A DNA stretch of 64,000 nucleotides from Eledone cirrhosa (taxonomy: Eukaryota), in the NCBI GenBank assembly GCA_964016885.1, contig OZ024764.1:19344001-19408000 (forward strand), in the 5' to 3' direction. The first letter of the stretch is position 1. Each line of letters begins with the position of its first letter. The position numbers were made by a program, and so were the translations under genes. Below, piece by piece: positions 24,595 to 26,416 of this stretch. Under the pieces are notes generated by a model that was not told the DNA's origin, ran no database searches, and was given only the letters and a program-made list of their open reading frames with translations.

Positions 24595-24676
24595 TACATC
24601 CATATATTGCGAGGAGAAAAATATTAAAACTGTGAATTATGTGAGAAACTGAGGTGATTGATATCTTTTATGAGAT

Positions 24677-25531
24677 ATGTCGAAAAATATAGTAAAATCA
24701 CCATTCCACTGTGATATCTGTGGTAAATCATTCTCTCGTAGTAATCAGCTAACTACTCACAAACGTATTCATACAGGAGAGAAGCCTTATAAGTGTGATA
24801 TCTGTAACAAATCATTCAGTCACAGTAGTAGCGTCAGAGTTCACAAACGTATTCATACAGGAGAGAAGCCATATCACTGTGACATCTGTGGTAAATCATT
24901 CAGTCACAATAATACCTTAACTAAACACCATCGTATTCATACAGGAGAGAAGCCATATCACTGTGACATCTGTGGTAAAACGTTCTCTAAAAATAATAAC
25001 CTAACTACTCACAAACGTATTCATACAGGAGAGAAACCATATCACTGTGATATCTGTGGTAATTCATTCTCTCAGAGTAATCACCTAACTACTCACAAAC
25101 GTATTCATACAGGAGAGAAGCCATATTACTGTTATATCTGTGGTAAAACGTTCTCTAAAAATAATAACCTAACTACTCACAAACGTATTCATACAGGAGA
25201 GAACCCATATCATTGTGATATCTGTGGTAAATCATTCACTTGTAGTCATCACCTAACTACTCACAAACGTATTCATACAGGAGAGAAGCCAGATCAATGT
25301 GATATCTGTGATAAATCATTCAGTGACAGTAGTAGCTTCAGAGTTCACAAACAAATTCATACAGGAGAGAAGCCACATCACTGTGACATCTGTGGTAAAT
25401 CATTCAGTCACAGAAATACCTTAACTACCCACAAACGTATTCATACAGGAGAGAAACCATATCACTGTGATATCTGTGGTAAATCATTCTCTCGTAGTAA
25501 TAACCTAACTACTCACAGACGTATTCATTAA
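24677..25531 (+). CDS. C2H2 zinc-finger ORF, 10 fingers, premature TAA; 2 further fingers and a partial one run to ~25772; inverted relative to the cluster
   Basis: Same MSKNIVKSP start as its paralogs. TAA replaces the linker Thr codon (cat TAA gga gag), and fingers continue in frame. The terminal KHVRIHT finger and 3' UTR are missing. Confidence 0.75.
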
Positions 25532-25775
25532 GGAGAGAACCCATATCACTGTGATATCTGTGGTAAAACATTCACTAAAAATAATAACCTAACTACTCAC
25601 AAACGTATTCATACAGGAGAGAAGCCATATCACTGTGATATCTGTGGTAAATCATTCAGTCACAGTATTAGCATCAGAGTTCACAAACAAATTCATTCAG
25701 GAGAGAAACTACATCATTGTCATCTGTAGTAAATCATTCAGTCAGGGTAATACCTTAACTACCCACAAACGTTAA

Positions 25776-26416
25776 ATATATTTAAAGATGATACAAACTG
25801 TTTTGTAGATCTCTTCAAGTTTAATATACATATAAAATTATTTTGTACATATTCCTGACAGTGAAGAATCTAATTTTTCTGGTCTTCATTTGATTAGTTA
25901 TTCCTGTAATAATGGAAATATTTCTACTCCTGTAGTTCCATCAACTATCATCTTTGTCAATATATGAAGATCTTACAAAATCATGTGTAATTGAGTTTAC
26001 AAGAAATATTTCCCAGTATTTCTCGCATAGATTTATATAAACAAGGTTGTATCTGTTCTGTATAACAGCTTCCTTTAGTCTTTAAATAATGGTGTTGATG
26101 AAACAACTGATATAAAAGTGTTTTATCTTTTTCATACCAGTCTTTATATTTATCTAAAAACTTTCCATTGTAAGTTCATGAAATTGTGCAAAGTTATGTT
26201 CCAAATAGCAGCTTAATACTGAGAAATTTAGTTATATTACTAAATCCCTTGAAAGTGTTGAGTGTTTTCAAAATTATTTGAAAATGATGGGTAGTGTCTT
26301 TCATTAGAAATGGTTAATGTTGAGGATATGTCTGATGTAACGTGCTCTTTAATGCCAATGTCCTCTGGTATTCTGAAATAATAAAAGAACATTATAAGAT
26401 ACTCAGAAACTTGTAA
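25776..26416 (-). pseudogene. Orphan 5' part of a zinc-finger exon 2 (acceptor plus leader)
   Basis: Homologous to 42805-43505; acceptor tttcAG at 26374-26373. Confidence 0.8.

What the first reader, a model, noticed from the sequence alone, without database searches (positions are those of the whole stretch)
24595..26416. Finger array flipped inside its own gene: a potential antisense source against the whole family
Seen: promoter copy 4, its intron and the acceptor and leader (26372-25776) keep the minus orientation, but the coding block 24598-25772 is inverted, with the gene's 3' end deleted. A normally spliced transcript would therefore carry ~1.2 kb antisense to highly similar paralog mRNAs. 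The flipped ORF also now lies 1.3 kb from the back side of promoter copy 3. Inference: a trans-acting antisense, endo-siRNA or ADAR-substrate locus, or a new gene driven by bidirectional transcription.
Basis: partly seen in the sequence, partly recalled or inferred. Interest (0 to 1): 0.7.

Follow-up and report, generated by a model that had tools for sequence, protein, structure and literature searches.

The report
Flipped zinc-finger block in decaying duplicate
One copy of a repeated zinc-finger gene, likely from an octopus, has its coding part turned backwards behind an intact-looking promoter, so it would make mirror-image RNA against its sister genes, a trick known from a snail gene, but here it is most likely a young broken copy with no shown expression or role.

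Summary
In a tandem cluster of minus-strand C2H2 zinc-finger genes, one copy (B) keeps its promoter-like element, donor, intron, acceptor and leader, but 24598-25772 is inverted. About 78 bp is lost on one side. On the other side, the last 1.5 fingers, 3' UTR and several kb of spacer are lost: a deletion-inversion-deletion. Both junctions carry short fold-back insertions, which points to DNA repair rather than misassembly. No listed public contig bridges either junction, but those runs come from a lineage that differs from this genome at family-wide sites, so they neither confirm nor refute it. A run that behaves like RNA supports use of the family's acceptor, but no B-specific RNA was seen. 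B looks decayed (stop after finger 10, frameshift in finger 13, 7 of 7 private framework changes non-synonymous). The flipped block also brings seven donor-like sites that could splice out most of the antisense. The bidirectional new-gene idea is weak. A duplicate turned antisense by internal inversion is already known (Lymnaea antiNOS-2). Most likely a near-neutral young pseudogene; about 12% chance of a family-wide antisense regulator.

The parts
32293..32400 (-). Promoter copy 4 core element (32396) and predicted first exon up to the donor (intron starts 32292)
   Evidence: Conserved in 5 copies. Promoter function is inferred.
26373..32292 (-). Intron of gene B. Holds a same-strand LINE (27140-30237; RT and endonuclease ORFs) and an inverted pair of repeat fragments
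   Evidence: Pfam RVT_1 and Exo_endo_phos; inverted arms; only 46 nt next to the acceptor keep family homology.
25777..26372 (-). Leader (5' UTR) of exon 2 in normal orientation, with a private ~55-bp deletion near 25985
   Evidence: 97% to C. A run-X4 contig starts at 26372 after 30 unlaid letters and depth falls beyond it.
25772..25785 (.). Right junction: 4 inserted bases (25773-25776) complete a perfect 14-bp palindrome with the leader end
   Evidence: Arms of 7 or more occur at 11 of 63649 positions outside TA runs.
24598..25772 (+). Inverted block: 79 bp of leader plus 12 full fingers and a cut, frameshifted 13th
24677..25531 (+). Flipped ORF, 284 aa, 10 C2H2 fingers, ending at a premature TAA
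   Evidence: exact sequence not in the protein collection.
24592..24597 (.). Left junction: 2 inserted bases (24596-24597) complete a 6-bp palindrome with the flank end
   Evidence: Family contigs in X1 and X3 run on normally at 24595 and 24598.
23470..24595 (.). Upstream flank of promoter copy 3, fused to the block; minus-strand AATAAA at 24240 is a candidate 3' end for the antisense-bearing RNA
23262..23370 (-). Promoter copy 3 and its donor; its own gene body is missing (intron homology stops at an LTR element, 16710-20818)
41182..43460 (-). Paralogue C exon 2 (14 fingers, open frame): the reference for the ancestral order and a potential antisense target
8805..10850 (-). Paralogue A exon 2 (17 fingers, frameshifted after finger 9): potential target, and the next family acceptor downstream of B

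Best explanation
One duplicate in a tandem zinc-finger cluster carries a deletion-inversion-deletion, likely made by template-switching DNA repair in an already decaying copy, which leaves a pseudogene that would at most give a low-level, partly antisense non-coding RNA with likely little effect on its sisters. Shown in the sequence: the inversion, both deletions, the junction insertions, the intact donor and acceptor motifs, the stop and the frameshift. Inferred: the repair mechanism, transcription from promoter copy 4, splicing at 26373, and then either a 3' end near 24240 (about 2.2 kb RNA) or splicing at the donor-like sites of the flipped strand (first at 25600, leaving about 170 nt of antisense). 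Near-neutrality is also inferred.
For: Anatomy. Fold-back insertions at both junctions, with a rough joint chance of 0.0006 strict or 0.015 allowing shifted centres. B is a distinct copy, not a mis-pasted A or C: 6 leader substitutions where C and run X1 agree against B, a ~55-bp and a 3-bp private deletion. Decay: TAA after finger 10, 2-bp deletion in finger 13, 7 of 7 private framework codon changes non-synonymous against 9 of 14 in A plus C (Fisher p=0.12, not significant). An X1 contig matches 25638-25772 without a gap, so it shares the 2-bp deletion, and then runs on with 7 unlaid letters; this suggests the frameshift is older than the inversion. Base rate: 3 of the 4 distinct units in the window are damaged (A frameshifted, promoter 3 without a gene body, B inverted). 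7 donor-like sites in the block against 0 in the A and C exons.
Against: No independent read or contig shows either junction. The promoter element, donor and acceptor are intact and the family acceptor appears used in X4, so expression is plausible. Loss of coding constraint is also what an antisense-only gene would show. The non-synonymous excess is not significant. Neutrality was not tested directly.
Confidence: 0.6

Rival explanations
1. B is a working trans-acting antisense gene like Lymnaea antiNOS-2. Promoter 4 would co-express a ~2.2-kb RNA with the family, pair with paralogue mRNAs and repress them by duplex formation, Dicer processing or ADAR hyper-editing.
For: Donor and acceptor motifs intact; promoter copies nearly identical, so co-expression with targets is expected. 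About half of all 21-mers match A or C exactly, longest exact matches 146 and 92 nt. Candidate polyA signal at 24240. Precedent in a mollusc (PMC3537157 passages).
Against: No B-specific RNA in the listed X4 contigs. The junctions were not seen in related lineages, so no conservation is shown. Seven donor-like sites lie in the block, and a same-strand LINE lies in the intron. It is one promoter among several. Summed contig depths in X1 hint at a family many times larger than one copy (about 1800-2100 against 93-133), though the tool warns that these are not copy numbers.
Confidence: 0.12
2. Promoter 4 has become an alternative promoter for gene A: transcripts would splice from a donor-like site in the flipped strand (first at 25600) to the next family acceptor at 10851, discarding most of the antisense.
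For: The flipped strand carries 7 GTRAGT sites that fit intron positions +1 to +6 as well as the gene's own donor does. B's own 3' UTR and polyA signal are deleted. Gene A has the next family acceptor on that strand.
Against: A minus-strand AATAAA at 24240, two intervening promoter copies and an LTR element lie in the 15 kb between. No RNA evidence, and no splice-strength scoring was possible. A is itself frameshifted.
Confidence: 0.12
3. The inversion is an assembly error in a highly repetitive cluster.
For: No listed contig bridges either junction in X1, X4, X5, X6 (right junction) or X1, X3, X4 (left junction). The region is a multi-copy array, and the window holds a 99% identical 48-kb repeat that may be uncollapsed haplotypes.
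Against: Those runs differ from all four window copies at 24232, 24253 and 24305, so they are another lineage. The listings were cut (31 of about 19300 and 24 of about 3500 pieces shown), and contigs drop rare variants. Templated junction insertions, two flanking deletions and private variants fit a biological event.
Confidence: 0.1
4. The flipped ORF is a new 10-finger gene driven by the back side of promoter copy 3.
For: 284-aa open frame with its ATG 1311 bp from the element. Plus-strand AATAAA at 26380. An X4 contig covers 24200-24558 with the other lineage's alleles, strand unknown. The element resembles an NRF1-type palindrome, common in bidirectional promoters (recalled, no call).
Against: Three AATAAA and three ATTAAA on the plus strand before the ORF. 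16 upstream ATGs, one out of frame 7 nt before the start. All private framework changes non-synonymous, plus a premature stop. No contig crosses 24595-24598.
Confidence: 0.04

Closest known systems
Lymnaea stagnalis antiNOS-2 (PMC3537157, passages read; Korneev and O'Shea 2002 seen only as a reference entry)
   Same: A duplicated gene copy with an internal DNA inversion, so that its transcript would be partly antisense to the parent mRNA in trans; also a mollusc, if the octopus assignment holds.
   Different: antiNOS-2 RNA is shown to be transcribed and also has a translated sense ORF. Here transcription is unshown, the minus-strand RNA has no ATG-started frame over 36 aa, and the targets would be a whole repetitive family rather than one gene.
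delINVdel complex structural variants (PMC6286558, passages read)
   Same: Inverted segment flanked by two deletions, two new junctions, short inserted bases; attributed to FoSTeS/MMBIR template switching.
   Different: Those were validated by Sanger or microarray. Here the junctions have little microhomology and fold-back insertions, and are not yet validated.
Pseudogene-derived endo-siRNAs of mouse oocytes (Tam 2008, Watanabe 2008; seen only as cited in passages of PMC2528163)
   Same: Antisense pseudogene RNA pairing with the mRNA of its parent genes.
   Different: Defined by Dicer-dependent small RNAs, which could not be tested. No long intramolecular hairpin here.
Coleoid cephalopod C2H2 zinc-finger expansions (PMC9068888 and PMC10547256 passages; PMC12513265 abstract and outline)
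   Same: Large tandem clusters of fingers with TGEKP linkers among many transposons.
   Different: The passages I read describe no internally inverted copies. The organism here was not established by a tool.

Membership tests
delINVdel complex structural variant | Inverted segment with a deletion on each side | tested here: met
   Block 24598-25772 inverted. 78 bp lost on the leader side; on the other, 1.5 fingers, 3' UTR and about 5.6-8.1 kb by analogy with units A and C.
delINVdel complex structural variant | Junctions with microhomology or templated insertions | tested here: met
   4-nt and 2-nt insertions that extend flank palindromes.
delINVdel complex structural variant | Junctions confirmed by independent reads | tested here: inconclusive
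   No bridging piece listed, but the runs are of another lineage and the lists are cut.
antiNOS-type trans-antisense pseudogene | Duplicate of a protein-coding gene with an internal inversion | tested here: met
antiNOS-type trans-antisense pseudogene | Antisense region complementary to the target mRNA | tested here: met
   88% to C and 83% to A; 524 and 601 of 1155 exact 21-mers.
antiNOS-type trans-antisense pseudogene | The inverted copy is transcribed | tested here: inconclusive
   Family acceptor appears used in X4. No B-specific allele or junction contig was listed, and X4 is another lineage.
antiNOS-type trans-antisense pseudogene | Co-expression, duplex formation and repression of the target | not testable with these tools
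   Needs stranded RNA, in situ data and knockdown in carriers.
antiNOS-type trans-antisense pseudogene | Sense ORF giving a truncated homologous protein (antiNOS-2) | tested here: not met
   Longest ATG-started frame on the minus strand of 24000-26372 is 36 aa.
Pseudogene endo-siRNA locus | Dicer-dependent 21-22-nt RNAs from the locus | not testable with these tools
   No small-RNA data were available.
Pseudogene endo-siRNA locus | Long intramolecular hairpin (the cis route) | tested here: not met
   Longest helix 12 bp in the fold of the minus strand of 24200-25500. Among the 25 longest of 510 inverted pairs, only a 31-nt pair shared by the family flank lies inside the predicted exon.
Tandem C2H2 zinc-finger gene | Repeated PF00096 fingers with TGEKP linkers | tested here: met
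   PF00096 E=3e-54; no KRAB or SET family among the best 25 of 38 shown.

The most novel reading that the evidence does not exclude
A single local inversion turned one member of a young, near-identical zinc-finger family into an antisense gene under the family's own promoter. It would be co-expressed with all its targets and, because the 84-bp fingers are shared, pair with every paralogue in many registers. That makes a built-in dosage brake or ADAR guide for a whole expanding transcription-factor family, possibly amplified further by the 48-kb duplication.
Probability: 0.12. Interest if true: 0.7.

Novelty: new member of a known kind. Interest (0 to 1): 0.3.

Why it matters
If ordinary, it is a base-resolved snapshot of how copies die in a rapidly turning-over zinc-finger cluster, with repair footprints at both junctions. 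If expressed and active, it would extend the antiNOS principle from one target to a whole paralogue family. It would also offer a natural carrier versus non-carrier test of how cephalopod-type zinc-finger expansions are dosage-controlled or edited.

Tried and rejected
No whole genome was held, so other copies and the next 48-kb period could not be checked. Protein searches were swamped by generic fingers: Octopus vulgaris hits reached 65% over the first 60 residues, and had the most HCD(I/V)CGK motifs (2 each) among 209 fetched proteins, which is only a hint. The LINE search named no useful organism. None of 3 finger proteins is in the collection exactly. Rfam gave 0 matches over 22400-33600. 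RAD run X22 had almost no depth at the left junction (0.16 in 24580-24598). Absence of bridging contigs is not used as proof, and contig depths are not used as expression or copy number. A processed retrocopy with a 5' inversion was rejected because promoter, intron and acceptor are kept. Import of the block from promoter 3's missing gene was judged less parsimonious, because block start and leader end are 78 bp apart in C coordinates. A search on RdRP in molluscs returned only virus papers. PMC6782476 was not held. Searches for an inverted zinc-finger array acting as antisense in cephalopods or gene clusters listed none by title or abstract; the library lacks most subscription papers. Earlier-finding look-ups near the place, by words and by sequence were empty.

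Full report
Setting. The window holds a head-to-tail cluster of minus-strand C2H2 zinc-finger genes among LINEs, an LTR element and minisatellites. Each unit has a conserved promoter-like element with a donor (5 copies), a long intron, an acceptor (4 copies) and one large exon with leader and fingers. Positions 1-15364 recur at 48441-64000 at 99.1-99.7% identity, so there are four distinct units: A (17 fingers, frameshifted), promoter 3 (gene body missing beyond an LTR element), B (the finding) and C (14 fingers, open). An octopus origin is likely but not established: the finger motif is best shared with two Octopus vulgaris proteins among 209 fetched, and earlier unchecked notes on this genome say the same.

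Observation. Confirmed. 24598-25772 matches C in reverse, finger for finger (1036 of 1175 aligned positions identical). The leader 25777-26372 and 46 nt of intron match C in the normal direction. In C coordinates the leader stops at 42804 and the block starts at 42725, so 78 bp is lost there. The block ends inside finger 13. The rest of the array, the stop, the 3' UTR with its AATAAA and the spacer are gone (5.6-8.1 kb by analogy with units A and C), and the block is fused to the upstream flank of promoter 3 at 24595. This is the deletion-inversion-deletion class described in human genomes (PMC6286558, passages).

Real or artefact. Both junctions carry inserted bases that extend a palindrome at the end of the non-inverted flank: 4 nt on the right (14-bp palindrome, 25772-25785) and 2 nt on the left (24592-24597). 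The rough joint chance is 0.0006, or 0.015 if the centres may shift. Arms of 7 or more occur at 11 of 63649 positions outside TA runs. I read this as template switching during repair (inference). B also has private features: 6 leader substitutions where C and run X1 agree against it, a ~55-bp deletion and a 3-bp deletion before the ATG. Against this, no listed contig bridges the right junction in X1, X4, X5 or X6, or the left one in X1, X3 or X4. In X1 and X3 the family runs on normally at 24595 and 24598, and an X5 contig starts at 25777 after 12 unlaid letters. These runs are not this genome's lineage: at 24232, 24253 and 24305 all four window copies share one base and 87-100% of contig depth carries another. 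The listings showed 31 of about 19300 and 24 of about 3500 pieces, and contigs drop rare variants. So the junctions are unconfirmed, and most likely young or lineage-restricted.

State of the copy. The flipped frame gives 284 aa with 10 fingers, then a TAA; finger 13 has a 2-bp deletion. Private framework codon changes are 7 of 7 non-synonymous in B against 9 of 14 in A plus C (Fisher p=0.12). One X1 contig matches 25638-25772 with 2 differences and no gap, then continues with 7 unlaid letters. It therefore shares the frameshift without the junction, which suggests decay began before the flip.

Transcription. Run X4 (library not on record) behaves as RNA. A contig begins exactly at 26372 after 30 unlaid letters (not shown), and depth falls from about 160-170 to 5-14 inside the intron, while an X1 contig runs through the acceptor. 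Leader contigs of both the long and the short type are present. This supports the exon model for the family, not for B. If promoter 4 fires, the RNA would run through 600 nt of leader into the antisense block, with a first AATAAA at 24240, giving about 2.2 kb with no ATG-started frame over 36 aa. Complementarity is strong: 524 and 601 of 1155 21-mers match C and A exactly. First, the reverse strand of the repeated finger codons makes 7 GTRAGT donor-like sites (first at 25600), against 0 in the sense exons of A and C, so most of the antisense may be spliced out. Second, a same-strand LINE lies in the intron, which keeps only 46 nt of family sequence before the acceptor. There is no long hairpin (longest helix 12 bp) and no Rfam match, so any duplex would have to form in trans.

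Bidirectional idea. The flipped ATG is 1311 bp behind promoter 3, but three AATAAA, three ATTAAA and 16 ATGs lie in between on that strand. An X4 contig covers 24200-24558 with the other lineage's alleles and unknown strand; it does not reach the junction.

Comparison. Lymnaea antiNOS-2 is transcribed from a duplicate of NOS altered by an internal DNA inversion and is proposed to act by duplex formation and by a truncated protein (PMC3537157, passages). The present locus has that architecture but not the demonstrated transcription or the sense ORF. Pseudogene-derived siRNAs are known from mouse oocytes (cited in PMC2528163, passages). Cephalopod C2H2 expansions are well described (PMC9068888 and PMC10547256 passages; PMC12513265 abstract and outline). 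Four searches listed no report of an inverted finger array acting on its family; I saw listings and abstract starts only and read no supplements.

Verdict. A probably real deletion-inversion-deletion in a decaying duplicate: near-neutral pseudogene 0.6, working family-wide antisense 0.12, alternative promoter for A 0.12, assembly error 0.10, new sense gene 0.04. It is a new member of a known kind, interest 0.3. It would rise to about 0.7 if junction-spanning antisense RNA and an effect on the paralogues were shown.

Noticed in passing
window 1-15364 and 48441-64000: A 48-kb block repeated at 99.1-99.7% identity: a recent tandem duplication or uncollapsed haplotypes. It predicts a second copy of the inverted gene near position 73200, outside the window.
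   Followed up: partly
window 16710-20818: LTR retroelement (LTRs about 250 bp, 90% alike; RT-like ORFs) lies between promoter 3's intron and promoter 2. Promoter 3 has no gene body and might serve as an alternative first exon for gene A.
   Followed up: partly
window 9189-10640 and 57350-58801: Gene A is frameshifted by a 1-bp deletion after finger 9, and has a 580-bp shorter leader than C. That short-leader type is present in X1, X3 and X4 contigs.
   Followed up: partly
window 24704-25772 against A and C: B's fingers are a mosaic: best matches alternate between A and C (finger 9 identical to A6, finger 2 99% to C2, finger 11 99% to C7), consistent with finger shuffling or gene conversion.
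   Followed up: partly
window 24232, 24253, 24305: All four window copies share one base while nearly all contig depth in the related lineage carries another, suggesting homogenisation or separate expansion of the family in each lineage.
   Followed up: partly
window 27140-30237: LINE with a 787-aa RT frame that includes a PHD finger, and a separate endonuclease frame; flanked by inverted repeat fragments that could pair in the pre-mRNA.
   Followed up: partly
window 10972-11291, 43605-44750, 59141-59920: 39-bp intronic minisatellite of variable length in A, C and A', absent from B's intron.
   Followed up: no
window 23740-24131 and 32498-32836: 73-bp minisatellite just upstream of promoter copies 3 and 4, shorter at copies 1 and 5.
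   Followed up: no
window 22446-23195: Insertion in promoter 3's intron with a 117-aa frame that looks like a DNA transposase fragment (recalled resemblance; no Pfam match).
   Followed up: partly
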